Below are positions 409 to 58,880 of a stretch of DNA of 64,000 nt, in pieces. The position numbers and the translations under genes are program-made. Within the stretch, counting starts at the first letter, position 1, and each line of letters opens with the position of its first letter. The notes beneath the pieces were generated by a model. It was given only the letters and a program-made list of their open reading frames with translations. It ran no database searches and had not been told where the DNA came from. Source of the DNA: Actinorugispora endophytica (GTDB lineage Bacteria; Actinomycetota; Actinomycetes; Streptosporangiales; Streptosporangiaceae). The stretch is from the NCBI RefSeq assembly GCF_004363075.1, contig NZ_SNYN01000005.1:187696-251695 (forward strand). The letters are read 5' to 3'.

Positions 409-420
409 TCTAGGACACGA

Positions 421-457
421 CAAAAGGCGCGCCATGCCCGGCATGGTGCGCCTTTTG
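421..457. terminator. Bidirectional rho-independent terminator hairpin after acs
   Basis: AAAGGCGCgCCATGcccggCATGGtGCGCCTTTTGT is a GC-rich stem with A/T tracts on both sides. Confidence 0.5.
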
Positions 458-607
458 TGGTGTTAATCGATGTTACAGGCATATTTCGTCCACCAACAGT
501 GCCCACTTCATTGACACTCGTCACATTGAGCCCACATTCTTTTCGGCATGAACCTGTCAGACAGCCGGACAGCAGGGCAGCCTGGTGTCCCCGGTCGCGT
601 CAGCGCG

Positions 608-7381: not shown

Positions 7382-7454
7382 GCCCCCATCGTCTAGTGGC
7401 CTAGGACGCCGCCCTTTCAAGGCGGTAACACGGGTTCGAATCCCGTTGGGGGTA
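7382..7454 (+). tRNA. tRNA-Glu (anticodon TTC)
   Basis: Cloverleaf by eye: acceptor GCCCCCA/TGGGGGT, anticodon loop cTTTCaa, T-arm ACGGGTTCGAATCCCGT. Confidence 0.85.
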
Positions 7455-7569
7455 CTGCTCGGTTCGAAGTACTGCTGAAGGTCTGGCAGAATAGAGAACA
7501 GAGCGAAGGACGCGGAACACCTGATAGGATCGGGTTAACGCGAACGAAGCGGACAAATTGAATAAGCAA

Positions 7570-7644
7570 GGTCCTGTGGAGCAGTTTGGAGTGCTCGCCA
7601 CCCTGTCAAGGTGGAGGCCGCGGGTTCAAATCCCGTCAGGACCG
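7570..7644 (+). tRNA. tRNA-Asp (anticodon GTC)
   Basis: Acceptor GGTCCTG/CAGGACC, anticodon loop cTGTCaa, T-arm GCGGGTTCAAATCCCGT. Confidence 0.85.
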
Positions 7645-7679
7645 CTCGCCTCACTGAAAAGTGCGGCCGGGGCCAGGTA

Positions 7680-7753
7680 GCTCAGTCGGTACGAGCGTCC
7701 GCCTGAAAAGCGGAAGGTCGGCGGTTCGACCCCGCCCCTGGCCACATCCATAA
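7680..7753 (+). tRNA. tRNA-Phe (anticodon GAA)
   Basis: Acceptor GGCCAGG/CCTGGCC, D-arm GCTCAGTCGGTACGAGC, anticodon loop cTGAAaa, T-arm GGCGGTTCGACCCCGCC. Confidence 0.85.
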
Positions 7754-7772
7754 GCAGCCAGGAAGCCCGGAA

Positions 7773-7806
7773 CCCTTGCGGTTCCGGGCTTTTTTGACGA
7801 CAACGC
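7773..7806 (+). terminator. Rho-independent terminator after the tRNA cluster
   Basis: AGCCCGGAACCcttgcGGTTCCGGGCT followed by TTTTTTG. Confidence 0.7.
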
Positions 7807-7874: not shown

Positions 7875-8095
7875 CGCTCGGAATGATCATGGGCTTTCCG
7901 CCCTTTCAGACCCCGAAGCGGGCAGAAAGCCCAAGACCGCTAACGGAACCCCACGCAACGGACATCATGGGCGCGATCTTGACTCGCGCCCGCCGTCGCC
8001 GCCCGTTGTGACCTCGCGATCCGCGTGGCGTGCGGCCGAAAGACCCACCCGAAGCACCGGCACGCCGAACCACCCCCGCTCCGGCAACTCCCTAC
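7875..8095. repeat. Intergenic repeat element, copy A: a near-palindromic hairpin module plus a roughly 100-nt conserved module
   Basis: GGAATGATCAT-GGGCTTTCCGCCC...GGGCAGAAAGCCC, then ...GTGACCTCGCGATCCGCGTGGCG.GCGGCCGAAAGACCCACCCGAAGCACCGG.ACGCCGAACCACCCCCGC. It is near-identical to the element at 18150-18330. Confidence 0.6.
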
Positions 8096-8523: not shown

Positions 8524-8668
8524 TTCGGCGAGTAGGGCCGTGCCCGCGATGATCTCGACGTCGGCGTTCCCCGGAACGGACATGTCGGAACGCTGACGTC
8601 GAGATCATCGACTCCCCGCCCCGGAAACCGGCGTGAGAAGTTGATCAAGCCCGACATAATGAACGATC

Positions 8669-17899: not shown

Positions 17900-18149
17900 T
17901 GGGGGGCTCAGCCTCAGGGCGAGCCGTTCCGGGTAAGTGTTCGGCCGCCGGACCGGGTCCGGCGGGCTCCCTCCGTGGTGTGAACGGTGGCCGCCCGGGT
18001 GGGAGGAGTGGGAGGACGGCCACCGCACAACGAGGGGATCTGTCGTCGACTTTTTGGGAGCGCTCCCAAGTGGTCGGTTCCCATTATTTGTGACTTGCTT
18101 CATATATGTCAATGGGTCCCGTGGGTCCGCTTTACGAGGATTTCGTTGA

Positions 18150-18330
18150 CGGTCGTGGGCTTTCTGCCCGTTTCGGGGCCTTGAAGGGCGGAAAGCCCGT
18201 GATCATTCCGGGTGGGAGCGGGGCCGGCCCGCACCCGCCGCCGCCCGCCGTGACCTCGCGATCCGCGTGGCGAGAGGCCGAAGGACCCACCCGAAGCACC
18301 GGTGCGCGAAACACCCCCGCGCCGGCGCCT
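18150..18330. repeat. Intergenic repeat element, copy B (same family as 7875-8095)
   Basis: GGGCTTTCTGCCC...GGGCGGAAAGCCC-GTGATCATTCC, then GTGACCTCGCGATCCGCGTGGCGAGAGGCCGAAGGACCCACCCGAAGCACCGGTGCGCGAAACACCCCCGC. The hairpin-plus-ATGATCAT module is inverted relative to copy A. Confidence 0.6.
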
Positions 18331-34122: not shown

Positions 34123-37026
34123 TCAGACGCGCCAGAGGGCCCCGCCGTCGGTGCCGTACAGCACGGCGTCGCCGTCGTCCTGGACGACCAGGCGGGTTCC
34201 CGGGTTGCCCGAGGTCCCGCTGTTCCAGAGCCGGTGGCCGTCGGCGTCGTAGAGGACGAGGTCGCCGTCCTCCTCCAGGTGCAGGACCCCGACGGAGGCG
34301 CCGTGGGTGCCCGTCGCCCACAGGGCGCGCCCGCGCGGCCCCCGGTAGAGGACGAGGTTGCCGTCGTGCTGGTAGACGAGGTGGTACTCGCCCGAGGCCG
34401 AGTCCAGCGCCCCCGGGGTCATGACCTGGCCGCCCAGCATCGTGTCGCCCCGGGCGGGCGGCCCCTCGGGCAGGGGGCGCCGTACGACCTCGGTGTCGGT
34501 GGCCCACAGCTCCTCGTCGTCCTCGCCGTACAGGACGACGTTGCCGTCGCCCCGGACGACCAGGCGCGCGCCGGGGTTCTCCTCGGTTCCGCTGTTCCAG
34601 ACCAGGTCGCCGTCGGCGTCGTAGAGGACGAGGTCGCCGTCCTCCTCCAGGTGCAGGACCCCGACGGACGAGCCGTAGGTGTCCGACGCCCACAGGGCGC
34701 TGCTGGAGCCGGTCCGGTAGAGGACGAGGTTGCCGTCGTGCTGGTGGGCGAGGTGGTACTCGCCGGAGGCGGAGGTGAGGGTGCCGCGCCGGAGGGTCTG
34801 GCCGGGCAGCATCGTGTCGCCCTGGGCGGGCGGCCCCTCGGGCAGCCTGCTCGCCTGCGCCGTGCCGGTGTGCCACAGCCGCCGGCCCGCCTCGTCGAGG
34901 AGGACGAGGTCGCCGTCGTCCCGGACGACCAGGCGCGCGCCGGGGTTGCCGGAGGTGCCGCTGCGCCAGACGGGGGCGCCGCCGCTGTTGTACAGGACGA
35001 GGTCGCCGTCCTCCCCCAGGTGCAGGACCCCGACGGAGGCGCCGTACGTGTCCGTCGCCCACAGGGCGTGGCCGTGGGAGCCCCGGTAGAGGACGAGGTT
35101 GCCGTCGTGCTGGTGGGCGAGGTGGTACTCGCCCGAGGCGGAGGAGAGGGACCCGCGCCGGAGGACCTGGCCGGGCAGGACCGTGTCGCCCTGGGCGGGC
35201 GGCCCCTCGGGGAGGGGGCGCCGGACGGTGTCGGTGTGCCACAGCCGCTCGCCCGCCTCGTCGAGGAGGACGAGGTCGCCGTCGTCCCGGACGACCAGGC
35301 GCGCGCCGGGGCTGCCGGAGGTGCCGCTGCGCCAGACGGGGGCGCCGCCGGCGTCGTGGAGGACGAGCTCGCCGTCCTCGTGCAGCGCCAGGGCCCCGAT
35401 CGAGGCGCCCTGGGTGTCGGACGCCCACATGGCGTTGCCGCGGGGGCCCTGGTAGAGGACGAGGTTGCCGTCGTACTGGTAGACGAGGTGGTACTCGCCC
35501 GAGGCCGAGGAGAGCGACCGCGGCCCCAGGACCTGGCCGGGCAGCATCGTGTCGCCCTGCGCGGGCGGCCACTCCGACAGCGGGTACCGGGCGGTGCGTG
35601 TGGCCCACAGCGGCCTGCCGTCGGCGTCGTGCAGCGCGAGGTCGCCGTCGTCCCGGACGACCAGGCGCGCGCCCGGAAGCCCCGAGGTGCCGGTGCGCCA
35701 GACGGGGGCGCCGTCGGCGTCGTGGAGGACGACGTCGCCGTCCTCGTGCAGGGCGAGGGCCCCGACCGAGGCCCGGCGGGTGCCGGACGTCCACAGGGCG
35801 TGGTCGTCGCTGTCCCGGTAGAGGGCGAGGTCGCCGTCGTTCTGGTGGACGAGCGTGTACTCGCCGGAGGCGGAGGTGAGGGACTGGCGTCGGAGGGTCT
35901 GGCCGCGCAGCAGCGCGTCGCCCCGCGCGTGCGGGCCCTCGGGGAGGGGGCGCCGGACGGTGCCGGTGGCCCACAGCCGCTCGCCCGCCCCGTCGTACAG
36001 CACGACGTCGCCGTCGTCCCGGACGACCAGGCGCGCGCCCGGGCTGCCCGCGGTCCCGGTGCTCCAGACCTCGTCCCCCCGGGCGTTGTGGAGCACCAGG
36101 TCGCCGTCCTCGCGCAGGGCGAGGCGCAACGTCCCCCCGCGGTGCCTCCCGGTCTCCCACAGGGACCGGCCGTCGTGGTCGCGGTACAGCACGACGTTGC
36201 CGTCGTTCTGGTGGACGAGCGTGTACTCGCCGGAGGCGGAGGTGAGGGACTGGCGCCGGAGGGTCTGGCCGGGCAGCATCGTGTCGCCCCGGGCGTGCGT
36301 GCCGGCTCCGGCGGGGGGCGGCGGGAGCGGGGCGGCGGCGGGGGAGTCGGCGACGCCGAGCTCCGCGGGGGTCTCCCACTCCAGGTGCTCGCGCTCCTCG
36401 TCGGCGGGGTCGCCCTTGGCGGGGACCGGGAGGTAGCCGCTGTCCCCGGTGACCGGTTCGCCCCGGTCCCGGTATCGCCACAGTCCCGCCGGCCTTCCGT
36501 CGTGCATGGCGTCCGCGACGTCGGCGAGCAGGTGGGCGAGGCTCGGCCACTCGGCGGGCTCGTCGTTGGCGTCGTCGTGGCGCCAGCTCATGACGCAGCC
36601 CTGCCGGGGGCCCTCGCGCAGGTCGACGAACATGTGGTCGCCCGACCCGTCGGCGGCGATCGGGACGAAGTACTCGGAGTAGTGCGGGGGAGGGGTCCCG
36701 GCCTCGCCGTCGCCGTCGCCGTCGTGTGCCGGGTCCGCGAACCCGCTGTCGGCTCCTCTGGACTCCAGGGCCGCACCCCGGATGGAGGCGACCTCGCCGA
36801 GCCCGATGGAGGCGTGGTCGGGAGGGAACACCGTGAGGTCGTCGAAGCGCGGCATCCGCCACCACGCCACCAGGTCGGGGGGAAGGGGGAACCCGAGGGC
36901 CTCCTCTTCGAGGCGGCGGACCTCCTCGTCGGTCGGCGGCTCCCGCCGCAGCTCCGGACTCCCGGGCACGTTCGCGTCCAGCCAGTCGAGGACGCGCTTC
37001 CATGACTCTTCCACTGAGGGGTACAT
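34123..37026 (-). CDS. SUKH (Smi1/Knr4) domain protein fused to six tandem bulb-type (monocot mannose-binding-type) lectin domains
   Basis: The N-terminal 200 aa carry WKRVLDWLDANVP...LGFPLPPDLVAWW...EYFVPIAADGSGDHMFVDL, a SUKH-1/SMI1_KNR4 signature with no signal peptide. A Pro-rich linker follows, then six repeats of about 123 aa each beginning GDTMLPGQ..L....SL.SASGEY.L..Q.DGN.VLY (the QxDxNxVxY motif) with degenerate second and third subdomain motifs (HEDGDLVLH, VVRDDGDLVLY). The DNA shows a period of about 369 bp. Confidence 0.75.
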   Translation of the reverse strand: MYPSVEESWKRVLDWLDANVPGSPELRREPPTDEEVRRLEEEALGFPLPPDLVAWWRMPRFDDLTVFPPDHASIGLGEVASIRGAALESRGADSGFADPAHDGDGDGEAGTPPPHYSEYFVPIAADGSGDHMFVDLREGPRQGCVMSWRHDDANDEPAEWPSLAHLLADVADAMHDGRPAGLWRYRDRGEPVTGDSGYLPVPAKGDPADEEREHLEWETPAELGVADSPAAAPLPPPPAGAGTHARGDTMLPGQTLRRQSLTSASGEYTLVHQNDGNVVLYRDHDGRSLWETGRHRGGTLRLALREDGDLVLHNARGDEVWSTGTAGSPGARLVVRDDGDVVLYDGAGERLWATGTVRRPLPEGPHARGDALLRGQTLRRQSLTSASGEYTLVHQNDGDLALYRDSDDHALWTSGTRRASVGALALHEDGDVVLHDADGAPVWRTGTSGLPGARLVVRDDGDLALHDADGRPLWATRTARYPLSEWPPAQGDTMLPGQVLGPRSLSSASGEYHLVYQYDGNLVLYQGPRGNAMWASDTQGASIGALALHEDGELVLHDAGGAPVWRSGTSGSPGARLVVRDDGDLVLLDEAGERLWHTDTVRRPLPEGPPAQGDTVLPGQVLRRGSLSSASGEYHLAHQHDGNLVLYRGSHGHALWATDTYGASVGVLHLGEDGDLVLYNSGGAPVWRSGTSGNPGARLVVRDDGDLVLLDEAGRRLWHTGTAQASRLPEGPPAQGDTMLPGQTLRRGTLTSASGEYHLAHQHDGNLVLYRTGSSSALWASDTYGSSVGVLHLEEDGDLVLYDADGDLVWNSGTEENPGARLVVRGDGNVVLYGEDDEELWATDTEVVRRPLPEGPPARGDTMLGGQVMTPGALDSASGEYHLVYQHDGNLVLYRGPRGRALWATGTHGASVGVLHLEEDGDLVLYDADGHRLWNSGTSGNPGTRLVVQDDGDAVLYGTDGGALWRV

Positions 37027-37070
37027 GCGCGGCACTCTGCCAGTGAACGGTGACAGGAAGGCGAACCTCC

Positions 37071-37132
37071 GCCGATCTTGACCTTTTCGGGGTCTCGACT
37101 GCGGCTGAGACCCCGAAAAGGTCAAGATCGGC
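37071..37132. repeat. Palindromic intergenic repeat (family P), copy 1; contains the stop codon of the DUF559 gene
   Basis: GCCGATCTTGACCTTTTCGGGGTCTC-gactgcggct-GAGACCCCGAAAAGGTCAAGATCGGC. Confidence 0.7.
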
Positions 37133-38060
37133 GAGGAAGTGAGAGCTCGCGCCGGAGGTAGGCGAGGATCGCGGTGTTCGCGGGGTGGAGGTCGGCCTGG
37201 GTGCAGACGTAGAGGTCCCAGCCGAGGTCCTTGACGGCGTTGCGGCGTGCCGCGTCCTCGCGCCACCTTTCGCGGTGCACGACCCCGTCGTACTCGACGG
37301 CGATCCGCTGTTCCCGGTAGCCGAGGTCGAGGCGGGCCACGTGTCGGCCGGACGGGGCGAACAGGTTGATCTGGGCCTCGGGGCGGGGAAGCCCCGCCCG
37401 TACGAGCTTCATCCGCAGCCGGGACTCGCCGGGGGACTCGCTCGCGGGTTCGGCCTGCTCCGCGACGAGGACGGCGCGTCGGATCCCGCGCCACCCGGCG
37501 AAGCGTTCGTGTCGCGCGTGGTCGGCCAGCTCCTCGGGTGTGAACAACCCGAGGTGGGTGAGCGCGTCCACCGCGACGACCGCTTCCGTGTCGTTCCCGC
37601 CCGGACCGGTCCTGCGCGCGAGGTCGAGTCCGGTGCGCAGGGGGGTGGTGGCGAGCAACCCCGCGAACCGCGTCACGTCTTCGGGGAGCAGCTCGGCGCG
37701 CCGGATCGACAGGCCGCGCCGCGGTCTCATCGGAGCACCTCGCGGCAGGGTGATCTCCAGGGGGTCGTTCCACCGGCGGATGTCCGCCCCGTACAGCCAG
37801 GCCGCGGTGCTCCCGCTGAGGACGGCCCCCTCCGGCAGGACGAGCGCGAGCGCGTGGACGCGCTGCTCGATGGTGTCGGGCAGTCCGGCGAACACGTAGA
37901 CGTCGCGCAGCAGCCGACGCCAGCAGCCGCTCCGCAGCTGCTCCGCGGTCAACGTCCCCTTCCGGCACGCTTCGGTGCCGCGGAACGGGCCTGTTCTGAG
38001 GGGTTCGGGAATCTCCGGGAGGGTTGGCATGTGTCCAGGGTGCGGCCGACCGCCGTCCAC
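37122..38060 (-). CDS. DUF559 (Vsr-like endonuclease domain) protein with an AbiEi-like N-terminal region
   Basis: The C-terminus reads EQRIAVEYDGVVHRERWREDAARRNAVKDLGWDLYVCT, typical of actinobacterial DUF559 proteins. Start is GTG at 38060 or ATG at 38030. Confidence 0.7.
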   Translation of the reverse strand: MDGGRPHPGHMPTLPEIPEPLRTGPFRGTEACRKGTLTAEQLRSGCWRRLLRDVYVFAGLPDTIEQRVHALALVLPEGAVLSGSTAAWLYGADIRRWNDPLEITLPRGAPMRPRRGLSIRRAELLPEDVTRFAGLLATTPLRTGLDLARRTGPGGNDTEAVVAVDALTHLGLFTPEELADHARHERFAGWRGIRRAVLVAEQAEPASESPGESRLRMKLVRAGLPRPEAQINLFAPSGRHVARLDLGYREQRIAVEYDGVVHRERWREDAARRNAVKDLGWDLYVCTQADLHPANTAILAYLRRELSLPRRS

Positions 38061-38080
38061 CGGGGATGCCTGTCCACAAC

Positions 38081-38152
38081 CCCTTGTTGATCTTGACCTT
38101 TTCGGGGTCTCAACCGCGGTTGAGACCCCGAAAAGGTCAAGATCAACAAGGG
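38081..38152. repeat. Palindromic intergenic repeat (family P), copy 2; a perfect 72-bp palindrome
   Basis: CCCTTGTTGATCTTGACCTTTTCGGGGTCTCAACCGCGGTTGAGACCCCGAAAAGGTCAAGATCAACAAGGG. Confidence 0.75.
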
Positions 38153-38163
38153 AGGGGTGCGGG

Positions 38164-38793
38164 CTACTCGACGATCAGGACTTCCAGGGTCCTCGGGCCG
38201 TGGACGCCCTCGACGCGGTCGAGTTCGATGTCGCTGGTGGCCGAGGGGCCGCTGATCCAGGTGAGGGGGCGGGACGGGTCCAGGCGGCTGACGGCGTCGG
38301 GGACGTCCGGCACGATCTGGTCGACGCGGACCACGCACAGGTGGTAGTCGGGCACGAGGGTGAGGGCCCGCCGCCCCTGGGCCGGGCCCGCGTCCAGCAC
38401 GATCGTGCCGGTCTCGGCGGCGACCACGGCGCAGCCGGTGAGCACGCCGTCCGCCGCGTCGAGGGCGGCGATGTCGAGCGCCTCGTCGGTGAGCACGGCC
38501 GCGTCGACGCGGCTCGTCCACTCCCCGGGCAGGTCCGTGGGCACCACCACGCGCCCGACCGAGCGCCGCGCCAGCGCGGCGGCGATCTCCTCGGGCAGGT
38601 CGGCCTCCGACACCCGGCGGGTCAGCGCCTTGTAGTCCTCCAGGCGGTCGACCAGCAGCTCGACCAGCTCCACGGGGGTGTGCGCGCGGGCGTAGCCGCG
38701 CGGCACCGCGACGTCCTCGGGCTCCTCGGCGCGCGGCACGTCCGCCAACGCCGCCCGCACCCGGGCCAGGACCCGTTCACGTGATCCGCTCAT
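38164..38793 (-). CDS. lutC: Lactate utilisation protein C (LutC/YkgG, DUF162)
   Basis: MSGSRERVLARVRAAL..., ending ...TLEVLIVE. The ATGA start overlaps the lutB stop. Confidence 0.8.
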   Translation of the reverse strand: MSGSRERVLARVRAALADVPRAEEPEDVAVPRGYARAHTPVELVELLVDRLEDYKALTRRVSEADLPEEIAAALARRSVGRVVVPTDLPGEWTSRVDAAVLTDEALDIAALDAADGVLTGCAVVAAETGTIVLDAGPAQGRRALTLVPDYHLCVVRVDQIVPDVPDAVSRLDPSRPLTWISGPSATSDIELDRVEGVHGPRTLEVLIVE

Positions 38794-52498: not shown

Positions 52499-52708
52499 GA
52501 TCGCCTCCGAGGTTGACGGGTACCGACACTGTGACACACGGCTACGACAATTCCGCCTCGTGCCGCTGCCCCGCTTTCCGGGGCCGCGCTCGGGAGGGGC
52601 CGCCGCGCGGGTCCGCCGCCCGCAGGGGGCCGGGGGGATACCGTGGATGGCCCCGCACCGGTCGGAACCGGTCGAGCCCCGGGAACCGCGGAGACGGGAG
52701 ACGACGCG

Positions 52709-53947
52709 ATGCTGCGGCGAACCACCATCACGACCGTTCTCAGGCGGGCGCTGCTCGGCCTGCTCGCGGCGCAGGTCGCGGTGGTCGTCGGCCTCGTCGG
52801 CATCGACACCTGGCGCAAGCGGATCCGTCCCGGACGGGTGGAGTTCCCCACGACCGAGCCGACGGACATCCCGGTCGGCGAGACGGTCGTCACGCCCTAC
52901 ACCTACGGCGAGCACCTCTACGCCGACATGCTCGACGCGATCCGGTCCGCGCGGCACCGCATCCTGCTGGAGTCGTTCATCTTCAAGGGCGACGAGGTGG
53001 GGAAGGAGTTCAAGCGCGCGCTGATCGACGCCGCGGACCGGGGCGTCGAGGTCTTCGTGATCTACGACGGGTTCGCCAACCTCGTCGTGCGGCCGTCCTT
53101 CTTCCGGTTCCCGCCCTCGGTGCACGTCATCCGCTACCCGGTGATCCGGCCGGGGCTCCTGCTGCTGAACGTGCGCAAGTCCGGCCGCGACCACCGCAAG
53201 ATCCTGACCGTGGACGGCGGGATCGGGTTCGTCGGCGGCTACAACATCGGCTCGGTGTACGCCACGGAGTGGCGGGACACGCACCTGCGGCTGGTCGGAC
53301 CGGCGGTGTGGGAGCTGGAGAACGCGTTCTCCGACTTCTGGAACTCCAACCGGGGGAGCGGGCAGCCGCGGCTCGACGACGTGGGCACCGAGCACTGGAA
53401 CGCGCGGATCCGCGCGCACCGCAACGTGCCCGAGGTGCTCATCTACCCCATCCGCGCGATGTACCTGGAGGCGATCGACCGGGCCAGGGACCACATCTAC
53501 ATCACCCAGGCGTACTTCATCCCCGATCGCGAGATCCTGGGCGCCCTGGTCGCGGCGGCCCGGCGCGGGGTGGACGTGCGAATCCTGGTCCCCGAGTACT
53601 CGAACCACGTCGTGGCGGACTGGCTGTCACGCGGCTTCTACTCGGCGCTGCTGCGCGGGGGCGTGACCCTGCTGCTGTTCCAGGAGGCCATGGTGCACGC
53701 CAAGACCGCCACCATCGACGGCCAGTGGAGCACGGTCGGCACCGCCAACGTCGACCGGTTGAGCCTCACCGGGAACTACGAGATCAACGTGGAGGTCTTC
53801 GACAGAGAGGTCGCGGCCCACCTCGAGGGGGTCTTCGCCAACGACAGCACCAACGCGCGCCGGTTGACGGAGGAGGAGTGGCGCCGCCGCCCGTTCGTGG
53901 CCAAGTTCAGCGAGACGGTCCTCGTCCCCTGGCGGCCCTTTCTCTGA
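52709..53947 (+). CDS. cls: Cardiolipin synthase/phospholipase D family with 2 HKD motifs
   Basis: HRKILTVDG and HAKTATIDG HKD motifs, with N-terminal TM segments. Confidence 0.8.
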   Translation: MLRRTTITTVLRRALLGLLAAQVAVVVGLVGIDTWRKRIRPGRVEFPTTEPTDIPVGETVVTPYTYGEHLYADMLDAIRSARHRILLESFIFKGDEVGKEFKRALIDAADRGVEVFVIYDGFANLVVRPSFFRFPPSVHVIRYPVIRPGLLLLNVRKSGRDHRKILTVDGGIGFVGGYNIGSVYATEWRDTHLRLVGPAVWELENAFSDFWNSNRGSGQPRLDDVGTEHWNARIRAHRNVPEVLIYPIRAMYLEAIDRARDHIYITQAYFIPDREILGALVAAARRGVDVRILVPEYSNHVVADWLSRGFYSALLRGGVTLLLFQEAMVHAKTATIDGQWSTVGTANVDRLSLTGNYEINVEVFDREVAAHLEGVFANDSTNARRLTEEEWRRRPFVAKFSETVLVPWRPFL

Positions 53948-54128
53948 CCGGGTTCCGCGTCGAAGCCCTCGATGCTCTTGACGCCATCGCCCCACGAAAC
54001 GGACGTCGCAGGGCGTTGACGTCGAGATCACCGAAGGCGGCGGTGCGAATCCGGCGGTCGAACCTCGGCGAGGCCCGCCGGGCGGGGGGCCGGGAACGCC
54101 CGGCCCCCTCGGCCCACCGGCGGACACG

Positions 54129-58819: not shown

Positions 58820-58880
58820 GTGATCGCGGCCTCTCCGGGGCCTCAAAAGCGGTTGGGACCCCGGAAAGGCCACGATCACC
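58820..58880. repeat. Degenerate copy of palindromic repeat family P
   Basis: GTGATCGcGGCCtctCCGGGGCCTCAAAAGCGGTTGGGACCCCGGaaaGGCCaCGATCAC has the same core as the 37.1 and 38.1 kb copies (CGGGGyCTCAA..GCGGTTGrGACCCCG). Confidence 0.55.

What the first reader, a model, noticed from the sequence alone, without database searches (positions are those of the whole stretch)
37071..38152. Perfect palindromic repeats bracket a DUF559 endonuclease-domain gene; a third degenerate copy lies at 58.8 kb
A 62-bp palindrome at 37071-37132 and a perfect 72-bp palindrome at 38081-38152 share the core GATCTTGACCTTTTCGGGGTCTC..GAGACCCCGAAAAGGTCAAGATC. They flank the 37122-38060 gene exactly, and the gene's stop codon lies inside the first copy. 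A diverged relative of this repeat at 58820-58880 sits between two other genes. The pattern suggests a REP/MITE-like element family, or that the DUF559 gene was mobilised as a cassette.
Basis: seen in the sequence. Interest (0 to 1): 0.55.

Follow-up and report, generated by a model that had tools for sequence, protein, structure and literature searches.

The report
Hairpin repeats bracketing a nuclease gene
Two nearly identical 58-base hairpin-forming repeats bracket a gene for a DNA-binding nuclease, and the same bracket is found around relatives of this gene in many other bacteria, which points to an undescribed gene-plus-repeat unit that may be mobile.

Summary
palA (37070-37133) and palB (38081-38152, a perfect 72-nt palindrome) share a 58-nt core and bracket a minus-strand gene (37122-38030). 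Its stop codon lies inside palA. The source is Actinorugispora endophytica. The protein has an AbiEi-like DNA-binding part and a Vsr/DUF559-type nuclease.

The window holds five elements of exactly 58 nt, each with TGATCT[TC]GAC ends or diverged versions of them. All five lie 9-26 nt after a stop codon.

The main new result concerns relatives of this gene from other organisms and other genomic contexts. In 25 of 67 such loci, direct copies of a repeat, most 55-75 nt and usually hairpin-forming, bracket the gene (shifted controls: 2 of 294). One copy abuts the stop of the upstream gene. The other overlaps the gene's own stop.

The stem pairs covary. Both copies are conserved in orthologous loci. 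A DnaA-box-like motif sits in the leader.

Best reading: the repeat is the nuclease's own hairpin site, and gene plus repeats form a conserved module like a REPtron or a cassette. Recent mobility is not shown, and the mechanism is inferred. I found no published description.

The parts
38081..38152 (.). palB, the repeat copy upstream of the nuclease gene. It is a perfect 72-nt palindrome. Its 58-nt family core is 38088-38145 (TGATCTTGAC-N38-GTCAAGATCA). The core ends 18 nt after the lutC stop codon (38164-38166).
   Evidence: (I2)
38071..38078 (+). DnaA-box-like motif TGTCCACA (TGTGGACA in the gene's orientation). It lies 2 nt from palB and 49 nt before the ATG. It is the only occurrence in the 64-kb window.
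   Evidence: The same motif sits in the leader of 20 of 67 homologous loci (p about 1e-23).
37122..38030 (-). Gene for a 302-aa protein with an AbiEi-like DNA-binding N-terminal part and a Vsr/DUF559-type PD-(D/E)XK nuclease C-terminal part. Its TGA stop (37122-37124) lies inside palA.
37070..37133 (.). palA, the repeat copy at the 3' end of the nuclease gene. It has 27-nt perfect arms and a 10-nt spacer. Its 58-nt core is 37073-37130. It lies 43 nt upstream of the start (37026) of the SUKH/B_lectin gene.
   Evidence: (I3, D1)
58821..58878 (.). palC, a solo 58-nt family member with diverged ends (TGATCGCGGCC on the plus strand). It starts 9 nt after the stop of a minus-strand AAA_27/SMC-like ATPase gene and lies before a FUSC_2 membrane-protein gene.
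8550..8607 (.). Solo 58-nt family member with perfect ends (TGATCTCGAC...GTCGAGATCA) and a different interior. It starts 26 nt after the stop of a small plus-strand gene and lies before a corA-like gene.
53973..54030 (.). Solo 58-nt family member with one mismatch in its ends. It starts 25 nt after the stop of a plus-strand PLD-domain gene (52643-53947).
7884..7940 (.). Hairpin of a related sub-family (GGAATGATCAYGGGCTTTCCGCCC...GGGCAGAAAGCCC). Membership in the 58-nt family is uncertain.
   Evidence: By my reading of the two sequences it is about 88% like the reverse complement of 18140-18214.
18140..18214 (.). Second copy of the related hairpin sub-family, in the opposite orientation. Membership in the 58-nt family is uncertain.

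Best explanation
The palindromes are copies of a 58-nt hairpin-forming element, called R here. In R the two 10-nt ends (TGATCTTGAC and GTCAAGATCA) pair to form the base of a long stem, while the interior is free to vary as long as it stays self-complementary. The gene between palB and palA encodes a protein with an AbiEi-type winged-helix DNA-binding part and a Vsr-like nuclease part. I take R to be this protein's own (cognate) site.

The whole arrangement is: stop of the upstream gene, R, a leader of about 60 nt with a DnaA-box-like motif, the nuclease gene, R overlapping its stop. This is a conserved module of a large, mostly actinobacterial protein family. It resembles a REPtron (a nuclease gene flanked by the repeats it acts on) or an attC-type gene cassette. 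In this genome R also occurs as solo copies at the 3' ends of other genes.

**Shown:**
- the anatomy of the module;
- its recurrence in other organisms and contexts;
- the fixed element length within the clade;
- the covariation of the stem;
- the conservation of both copies;
- the domain make-up of the protein.

**Inferred:**
- that the protein binds the paired ends of the extruded or single-stranded hairpin and nicks near its base;
- that this activity copies or disperses R and keeps the gene bracketed by it.
For: **The bracket recurs.**
- Homologues at 54-72% identity, in at least three clearly different gene contexts, are bracketed by repeats. Three of them (L020, L040, L045) share the TGATCTTGAC ends, and there the TGA of that motif is the gene's stop codon. 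The fourth (L044) has a different repeat.
- In 25 of 67 non-redundant loci the region upstream of the gene and the region around its stop share a direct repeat with local score 30 or more. Shifted pseudo-genes in the same loci give 2 of 294. The cross-locus null has mean 10.2 and 99th percentile 19.5.
- Most units are 55-75 nt. Fourteen of 21 fold at -25 kcal/mol or better.

**The length is fixed.** All five window copies are 58 nt. So are the three copies in L040 and the upstream copy of L045 and L047 (one shared sequence). The L020 copy is 57 nt. About one loose hit appears in 505 kb of other loci.

**The hairpin itself is maintained.** In nine elements, 86.6% of 24 stem pairs are kept, against 69% in shuffles and 33-42% when the partner is slid. 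Eighteen of the 24 pairs have changes on both sides.

**Both copies are functional sites.** In the orthologous loci L084, L099 and L108, upstream copies are 72-89% alike across loci, against 76-81% between the two copies of one locus. The flanks are 88-93% identical and the gene 74-85%.

**Placement is not random.**
- The upstream copy starts within -15 to +28 nt of the stop of a co-directional ORF in 17 of 23 loci. Random positions do so 12% of the time (p = 1e-11).
- Where the loop is asymmetric, orientation is direct in about 19 loci and flipped in 4.

**Repeats cluster at the gene.** In the 28 loci with a strong repeat, 56 copies flank the gene. A whole-repeat similarity search found 5 further distinct copies in about 208 kb.

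**The protein fits the role.**
- PADLOC AbiEi models match at E = 1.7e-12.
- The fold search's top hit is Rv2827c, PDB 1zel, E = 8e-4.
- A profile of the family matches the DUF559 structure 3hrl at E = 1.4e-4.
- D235, E246 and D248 are invariant and H252 nearly so.

**Precedents from papers.**
- A Vsr-fold homing endonuclease acts as a homodimer and footprints about 60 bp (PMC3239194).
- AbiEi-family proteins bind inverted repeats (PMC7319586).
Against: - Nothing shows that this protein binds or cuts R.
- No presence/absence polymorphism or empty site was found. What lies downstream of lutC differs in every relative examined.
- Orthologous loci are syntenic, so any mobility is rare.
- Forty-two of 67 loci lack a clear repeat pair.
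- Outside this window, no solo copies were seen in the +/-3 kb flanks of other lineages. The dispersed, REP-like aspect may therefore be special to this clade.
- Vsr-fold enzymes hydrolyse DNA and do not religate, so a self-contained cut-and-join mechanism is hard to picture.
- The 67 loci are not phylogenetically independent, because several are orthologous sets.
Confidence: 0.5

Rival explanations
1. Regulation only. The upstream copy is a terminator or insulator hairpin for the preceding gene and/or an operator bound by the protein's AbiEi-like domain for autoregulation. The downstream copy ends the gene's own transcript. No DNA mobility or DNA processing is involved.
For: - AbiEi-family proteins repress their own promoters through inverted repeats (PMC7319586).
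- Both copies abut stop codons.
- Both copies are conserved in orthologous, syntenic loci.
- A protein-binding-site-like motif sits in the leader.
Against: - An operator does not need compensatory changes through the whole 24-bp stem.
- Two independent terminators have no reason to stay 84-90% identical to each other within a locus while sharing only their ends and length with those of other genera.
- The hairpins have no T-tract.
- This reading does not explain three-copy arrays that enclose other genes.
- It does not explain the solo copies with the same ends and the same 58-nt length elsewhere in the window.
Confidence: 0.25
2. Whole-hairpin target duplication. The gene inserted into a pre-existing 3'-end hairpin after two nicks on opposite strands at the two inverted ends, 58 nt apart. 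Gap filling then duplicated the hairpin, in the way a CRISPR repeat is duplicated at spacer integration.
For: - The two copies are in direct orientation.
- The upstream copy sits where a host gene's 3' hairpin would be.
- The spacing of the two ends is fixed.
- The reading frame runs into the repeat and stops there, which gives variable C-termini.
- The solo copy palC could be an unoccupied site.
Against: - In orthologous sets the duplication is old and both copies are conserved, so they are not decaying relics.
- The conserved TGATCTTGAC ends in four organisms would then have to pre-exist in every host.
- Each copy has its own palindromic extension into its flanks, which a simple duplication does not give.
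- In L040 the two outer copies are identical and the middle one differs.
Confidence: 0.12
3. The association is incidental. The palindromes are ordinary species-specific REP-like or terminator hairpins that happen to lie on both sides of this gene, with no link to its product.
For: - Solo copies sit at the 3' ends of unrelated genes in the same window.
- Similar long hairpins follow lutC in relatives.
Against: - The bracket recurs around homologues in other organisms (25 of 67 loci, against 2 of 294 controls), with clade-specific repeat sequences.
- Repeat copies are concentrated at the gene.
Confidence: 0.05

Closest known systems
REPtrons (REP/BIME repeats with their RAYT gene)
   Same: - A single nuclease gene is flanked by short, hairpin-forming, species-specific repeats.
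- The repeats also occur as solo copies in intergenic regions at the 3' ends of genes.
- The gene is inherited vertically rather than hopping.
   Different: - The enzyme is an AbiEi-like wHTH plus a Vsr-fold hydrolase, not an HUH/Y1 transposase.
- The repeats are 58 nt with TGATC ends, not 20-40 nt with GTAG.
- The flanking copies are in direct orientation, not inverted.
- Abundance across the genome is unknown.
Integron gene cassettes (ORF plus attC)
   Same: - The site is an imperfect palindrome whose conserved ends pair with each other while the centre varies in sequence but stays self-complementary.
- The site lies directly after, or overlapping, the stop codon.
- Successive copies are in direct orientation.
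- Small arrays enclose other genes (L040, L117).
   Different: - No IntI tyrosine recombinase or attI site was seen.
- The core sequences differ from RYYYAAC/GTTRRRY.
- The two sites around one gene are near-identical here, which is not the case for neighbouring attC sites.
- The 'cassette' gene is itself the candidate enzyme.
I-Bth0305I / EDxHD homing endonucleases (PMC3239194)
   Same: - The architecture is multidomain, with a Vsr-fold catalytic domain at the C-terminus.
- The enzyme is a homodimer on a pseudo-palindromic target with a footprint of about 60 bp, close to the 58-nt element.
   Different: - I-Bth0305I is encoded in a group I intron of a phage gene, and its target is split by the intron.
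- Here the gene stands free between host genes and the presumed target is intact on both sides.
- The structural match is weak (3r3p, E about 1.4, TM 0.50 on the target).
AbiEi antitoxins (type IV toxin-antitoxin AbiE; Rv2827c)
   Same: - The N-terminal two-thirds of the protein match AbiEi models and the Rv2827c fold.
- AbiEi proteins bind inverted repeats at their own promoters.
   Different: - No AbiEii/DUF1814 nucleotidyltransferase partner is present.
- The C-terminus is a nuclease instead.
- The repeats lie on both sides of the gene and covary as a hairpin.

Membership tests
REP elements / REPtron | Short palindromic repeats dispersed in many intergenic copies in one genome | tested here: inconclusive
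   Five 58-nt copies lie in 64 kb, all intergenic and just after stop codons.
REP elements / REPtron | The associated gene encodes a RAYT (HUH/Y1 transposase of the IS200/IS605 type) | tested here: not met
   The bracketed gene matches AbiEi_1, MTES_1575 and DUF559, PADLOC AbiEi models and the structure 3hrl. No Y1 transposase match was found.
REP elements / REPtron | The repeats flank the gene in inverted orientation and carry a conserved GTAG-type tetranucleotide | tested here: not met
   Where the loop is asymmetric, about 19 loci are direct and 4 flipped. The ends are TGATCT[TC]GAC.
MITE | Terminal inverted repeats plus a direct target-site duplication | tested here: not met
   Terminal inverted repeats are present. 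The flanking bases, however, are complementary to each other rather than direct repeats.
Integron cassette / attC | Conserved inverse-core and core ends (RYYYAAC ... GTTRRRY) that pair, with a variable palindromic centre | tested here: not met
   The design is the same: the ends pair and the centre covaries. The end sequences are TGATCTTGAC/GTCAAGATCA, not the attC cores.
Integron cassette / attC | An IntI tyrosine recombinase gene and an attI site next to the array | not tested
   The adjacent genes are lutABC and a SUKH/B_lectin gene. The rest of the window was not screened for integrases.
Intrinsic (Rho-independent) terminator | A G+C-rich hairpin followed by a T/U tract | tested here: not met
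   No terminator-like sites were found in 36800-38400. No T run follows either palindrome.
Known RNA families (Rfam 15) | A match at or above the gathering score | tested here: not met
   Only three tRNAs pass in the window. In E-value mode, only sub-threshold microRNA-hairpin matches appear.
DUF559 / Vsr-like PD-(D/E)XK nucleases | C-terminal domain with the D...E-x-D-G-x3-H catalytic signature | tested here: met
   - D235, E246 and D248 are invariant and H252 is nearly invariant.
- The family profile matches 3hrl at E = 1.4e-4.
- The single-sequence Pfam scores are below cut-off (DUF559 17.3 against 20.6 bits).
- Close homologues carry precomputed PF04480 and PF18741 hits.
AbiEi antitoxin (type IV TA) | AbiEi-type DNA-binding plus C-terminal domain | tested here: met
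   PADLOC AbiEi matches at E = 1.7e-12 over residues 31-176. Pfam AbiEi_1 scores 22.0 bits against a cut-off of 22.2. The top fold hit is Rv2827c, E = 8e-4.
AbiEi antitoxin (type IV TA) | An adjacent AbiEii (DUF1814 nucleotidyltransferase) toxin gene | tested here: not met
   The neighbours are LutC (LUD domain) and a SUKH/B_lectin protein.
EDxHD homing endonucleases | [quoted passage not shown] | tested here: not met
   The gene stands free between host genes, with intact repeat copies on both sides.

The most novel reading that the evidence does not exclude
The AbiEi-wHTH/Vsr-nuclease genes with their direct hairpin repeats are a previously unrecognised class of nuclease-driven hairpin element.

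In this reading the protein recognises the paired ends of the extruded hairpin and nicks at its base. A nick at the upstream copy and another at the downstream copy would release or copy a single-stranded [gene + R] unit. That resembles rolling-circle or cassette behaviour, possibly helped by DnaA at the leader box. The unit would then enter other R hairpins at the 3' ends of genes.

Solo 58-nt copies would be non-autonomous derivatives or landing sites. Three-copy arrays would show capture of other genes.
Probability: 0.2. Interest if true: 0.85.

Novelty: new variant of a known kind. Interest (0 to 1): 0.62.

Why it matters
DUF559 proteins fused to AbiEi-like domains form a very large family with no known function. 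In a library of one representative per 50%-identity cluster, 1,732 representatives match at E <= 1e-30 and 16,588 at E <= 1e-10.

A fixed companion DNA element gives this family its first concrete, testable substrate. That element is about 58 nt long, forms a hairpin, sits on both sides of the gene, abuts stop codons and covaries to keep its stem.

If the protein acts on the hairpin, three things would follow:
- a nuclease/repeat partnership parallel to RAYT/REP but built on a different enzyme fold;
- an account of how long perfect palindromes arise and persist in high-G+C genomes;
- a possible new sequence- and structure-specific nickase.

If it does not, the hairpins still mark a conserved way of insulating a potentially toxic nuclease gene.

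Tried and rejected
- **Genome-contig scan** with the degenerate arm pattern GACCCCGRAAAGGYCAMGATC.
- **Exact-protein look-ups.** The 312-aa and 302-aa forms of the nuclease are not on record; the public record holds a 276-aa form. The P0031 look-up failed. The attempt to extend the window through the SbcD-like gene returned only a 4.8-kb read assembly.
- **blastn of palB against plasmids:** no match.
- **Viral-contig scan** for TGATCTYGAC-N36-40-GTCRAGATCA: four hits of 56-60 nt with weak folds and G+C of 0.42-0.61, which I take to be chance.
- **Rfam:** nothing relevant.
- **Consensus promoters and terminators:** none.
- **Other nuclease copies.** A second DUF559 gene or pseudogene near palC or elsewhere in the window: none by tblastn.
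- **Empty site in relatives.** What follows lutC differs in every relative: TetR in Thermobifida halotolerans, a tRNA plus an integrase element in Allosalinactinospora, and a DDE_5 insertion sequence in an uncultured relative.
- **Fresh target duplication or strong concerted evolution.** Rejected as a general rule, because in orthologous sets upstream copies resemble each other across species at least as much as the two copies of one locus do.
- **Solo copies in other lineages,** searched by whole-repeat similarity and by end motifs: almost none within +/-3 kb.
- **Strand-specific G-U pairing.** palC folds better on the sense strand, but the copy at 53973 folds better on the antisense strand. 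This gives no verdict on RNA against DNA.
- **Literature.** No paper in the library links DUF559 to flanking repeats.
Full report
**1. The observation**

- palA has 27-nt perfect arms (37070-37096 and 37107-37133) around a 10-nt spacer.
- palB is a perfect 36+36-nt palindrome at 38081-38152.
- The 23-nt core GATCTTGACCTTTTCGGGGTCTC occurs four times, once per arm, against none in 100 shuffles.
- As single strands the two elements fold at -61 and -73 kcal/mol, with z-scores of -10 and -14.

All genes in this stretch lie on the minus strand, in this order: lutA, lutB, lutC (stop 38164-38166), palB, a 302-aa gene (37122-38030), palA, and a SUKH/B_lectin repeat gene that starts at 37026. The TGA stop of the 302-aa gene (37122-37124) lies inside palA. 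The third copy at 58821-58878 is a true relative with compensatory arm changes.

**2. Source and protein**

- Exact and near-exact protein matches place the window in Actinorugispora endophytica (Nocardiopsaceae), on a 303-kb contig.
- The protein matches PADLOC AbiEi models at E = 1.7e-12 over residues 31-176.
- Its AlphaFold model (pLDDT 77.6) has Rv2827c, the M. tuberculosis AbiEi-family protein, as top structural hit.
- A profile of the protein and its homologues matches the DUF559 structure 3hrl over the C-terminal 60 residues.
- D235, E246 and D248 are invariant and H252 nearly so.
- The protein is therefore a DNA-binding domain fused to a Vsr-type nuclease, with no AbiEii partner gene.
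- The alignment with homologues supports ATG 38030 as the start, rather than the shorter public annotation.

**3. A family of 58-nt elements in the window**

A covariance model of the three copies picked up further candidates. A scan for the two inverted 10-nt ends then found five elements of exactly 58 nt:

| Element | Coordinates | Ends |
|---|---|---|
| solo | 8550-8607 | perfect |
| palA | 37073-37130 | 2 mismatches |
| palB | 38088-38145 | perfect |
| solo | 53973-54030 | 1 mismatch |
| palC | 58821-58878 | diverged (4 mismatches) |

- Random sequence gives 0.8 pairs per 64 kb under much looser criteria.
- Every element lies between genes, 9-26 nt after a stop codon.
- The interiors differ between sub-groups but remain self-complementary.
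- Two further hairpins (7884-7940 and 18140-18214) form a related sub-family.
- None has a T tract, and none matches an Rfam family.

**4. The bracket travels with the gene**

The closest homologues come from other organisms and lie in other contexts.
- P0002 (72% identity) sits next to a GmrSD gene and a helicase/MZB/PLD cluster.
- P0004 (61%) is from a Nocardiopsaceae metagenome-assembled genome (MAG).
- P0003 (66%) and P0006 (54%) are further examples.
- The three closest (L020, L040, L045) have an inverted-repeat element with TGATCTTGAC...GTCAAGATCA ends upstream, and a copy or a degenerate copy at the 3' end whose TGA is the stop codon.
- P0006 has a different repeat in the same two places.
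- In L040 all three copies are 58 nt, as is the upstream copy of L045; the L020 copy is 57 nt.
- Between these genera only the ends and the length are shared. Within a locus the two copies are 84-90% alike.

**5. Generality**

A metagenome scan with an alignment of these proteins returned 80 loci at 32-67% identity.
- I aligned the 400 nt before each gene with the region around its stop. Twenty-five of 67 non-redundant loci scored 30 or more.
- The cross-locus null has mean 10.2 and 99th percentile 19.5. Shifted pseudo-genes in the same loci reached 30 in only 2 of 294 cases.
- Most units are 55-75 nt, and many are 57-61 nt between their outermost inverted ends.
- Fourteen of 21 units fold at -25 kcal/mol or better.
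- The upstream copy ends 10-60 nt before the start in most loci. The downstream copy usually starts between 48 nt before and 5 nt after the stop.
- The upstream copy begins within -15 to +28 nt of the stop of a co-directional ORF in 17 of 23 loci, against 12% for random positions (p = 1e-11).
- Where the loop is asymmetric, about 19 loci have direct copies and 4 fit a flipped loop better.
- In the 28 loci with a strong repeat, 56 copies flank the gene. A whole-repeat similarity search found 5 further distinct copies in about 208 kb.
- Two of those extras make three-copy arrays. L040 has R, the nuclease gene, R, about 720 nt of lower-G+C DNA with a 102-aa ORF, then R. L117 has R after ileS, a methyltransferase gene on the other strand, R, the nuclease gene, then R.

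**6. Old or recent?**

- Pairs of loci with similar genes often have flanks that are more conserved than the gene itself. L084, L099 and L108 have flanks 88-93% identical and genes 74-85% identical. L094 against L117, and L080/L111 against L120, behave likewise. These are orthologous, syntenic loci.
- In the L084 set, upstream copies are 72-89% alike across loci, while the two copies of one locus are 76-81% alike.
- The duplication therefore predates these species, and both copies are kept. This argues that both are functional sites. It also argues against fresh target duplications or frequent hopping.
- L081 shares its repeat type with L120, L080 and L111 but has no detectable flank homology to them. 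The window, L020 and L040 likewise lie in unrelated contexts. Over longer times the gene and its repeats have therefore moved together.

**7. Hairpin or duplex site?**

- I aligned nine 58-nt elements from about six independent lineages. They keep 86.6% of 24 stem pairs, against 69% in shuffles and 33-42% when partners are slid. Eighteen pairs have changes on both sides.
- Self-complementarity itself is maintained, while only the 10-nt ends are conserved in sequence.
- This is the design of sites that work as folded single strands or cruciforms, such as attC, REP and IS200/IS605 ends. It is not the design of a duplex operator.
- Each window copy also carries a few extra symmetric bases outside the 58-nt core, and these differ from copy to copy. 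The flanks are complementary rather than direct repeats.
- Insertion into short palindromes, or hairpin-templated synthesis, would both produce this. I cannot tell which applies.

**8. A leader motif**

- Between the upstream repeat and the start codon, 20 of 67 loci carry T[ATG]TCCACA in either orientation, mostly 47-67 nt before the start. About 1% would be expected (p about 1e-23).
- Several are perfect TTATCCACA or TTGTCCACA, the DnaA-box consensus as I know it from the general literature.
- In the window the only occurrence in 64 kb is at 38071-38078, 2 nt from palB.
- It may be a true DnaA site or the operator of the protein itself.

**9. Interpretation**

The best-supported reading is that R is the cognate hairpin site of the AbiEi-wHTH/Vsr nuclease, and that gene plus repeats form a conserved module. 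It is like a REPtron in that a nuclease gene is flanked by its repeats and, in this genome, solo copies lie at the 3' ends of genes. It is like an attC cassette in the design and placement of the site.

That the protein binds the paired ends and nicks at the stem base is inference. It is supported only by analogy:
- a Vsr-fold homing endonuclease that works as a homodimer and footprints about 60 bp (PMC3239194);
- AbiEi proteins that bind inverted repeats (PMC7319586).

The rivals are regulation and insulation only, whole-hairpin target duplication, and incidental association. They are weighed in their own sections of this report. The last is strongly disfavoured by the controls.

**10. Novelty**

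- Twenty-five papers in the library mention DUF559, and none links it to flanking repeats or mobility.
- Searches on RAYT and REP in Actinobacteria found nothing comparable.
- The family is large.
- I rate this a new variant of a known kind: a nuclease with its own hairpin repeats. Interest is moderate to high, tempered by the lack of any direct evidence for activity or mobility.

**11. Limits**

- No close relative of the source genome was available.
- The loci surveyed are partly orthologous sets, so counts overstate independence.
- Gene starts in metagenomic loci are approximate.

Noticed in passing
window 38071-38078 (and the leaders of L071, L110, L080, L111, L076, L040, L020 and others): A DnaA-box-like motif T[ATG]TCCACA lies between the upstream repeat and the start codon in 20 of 67 homologous loci, in either orientation and mostly 47-67 nt before the start (p about 1e-23). 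In the window it is the only occurrence in 64 kb.
   Followed up: partly
window 7884-7940 and 18140-18214: These two hairpins are about 88% alike in opposite orientation (GGAATGATCAYGGGCTTTCCGCCC...GGGCAGAAAGCCC). They start with TGATCA and share GACCCCGAA with palA and palB. They may be a second sub-family of the same element.
   Followed up: partly
window 37073-37130, 38088-38145, 8550-8607, 53973-54030: Each 58-nt element is embedded in 3-8 further bases of palindromic symmetry that differ between copies. The flanks are complementary to each other, not direct repeats.
   Followed up: partly
L040 5887-7750; L117 1468-3272: These are three-copy arrays. In L040 the second interval holds about 720 nt of lower-G+C DNA with a 102-aa ORF that has no Pfam match, and the two outer repeat copies are identical while the middle one differs. 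In L117 a methyltransferase gene lies between the first two copies.
   Followed up: partly
L020 1173-10468: The closest homologue (72% identity) lies next to a GmrSD gene and a helicase / MZB (DUF1998) / PLDc_2 cluster that looks like a defence island.
   Followed up: no
window 37952-38030: The public annotation of the nuclease gene is 276 aa, which corresponds to a TTG start at 37952. The alignment with ten homologues supports ATG 38030 (302 aa).
   Followed up: yes
L019 9501-9541 (= window about 38122-38163): A read-based assembly holding a LutC identical to the window's (the public record names it Actinorugispora endophytica) breaks inside palB, 41 nt after the lutC stop. This is expected for a repeated palindrome.
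   Followed up: no
window 34123-37026 (- strand): A 967-aa protein has an N-terminal SMI1/KNR4 (SUKH-1) domain followed by many B_lectin repeats. The repeats are highly repetitive at the DNA level and gave the highest scores in the window-wide repeat control.
   Followed up: no
L132 5619-5680: In Thermobifida halotolerans the lutC stop codon lies in TGATCCTGTC, at the foot of a hairpin of about 55 nt. This loosely resembles the window's element (8 of 10 bases at the end).
   Followed up: no
window 415-463 and 7754-7799: Two other hairpins lie here. One is a 24-nt-arm inverted repeat at 415-463. The other is a classical hairpin plus T tract immediately after the third tRNA gene (tRNAs at 7382-7744).
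   Followed up: no
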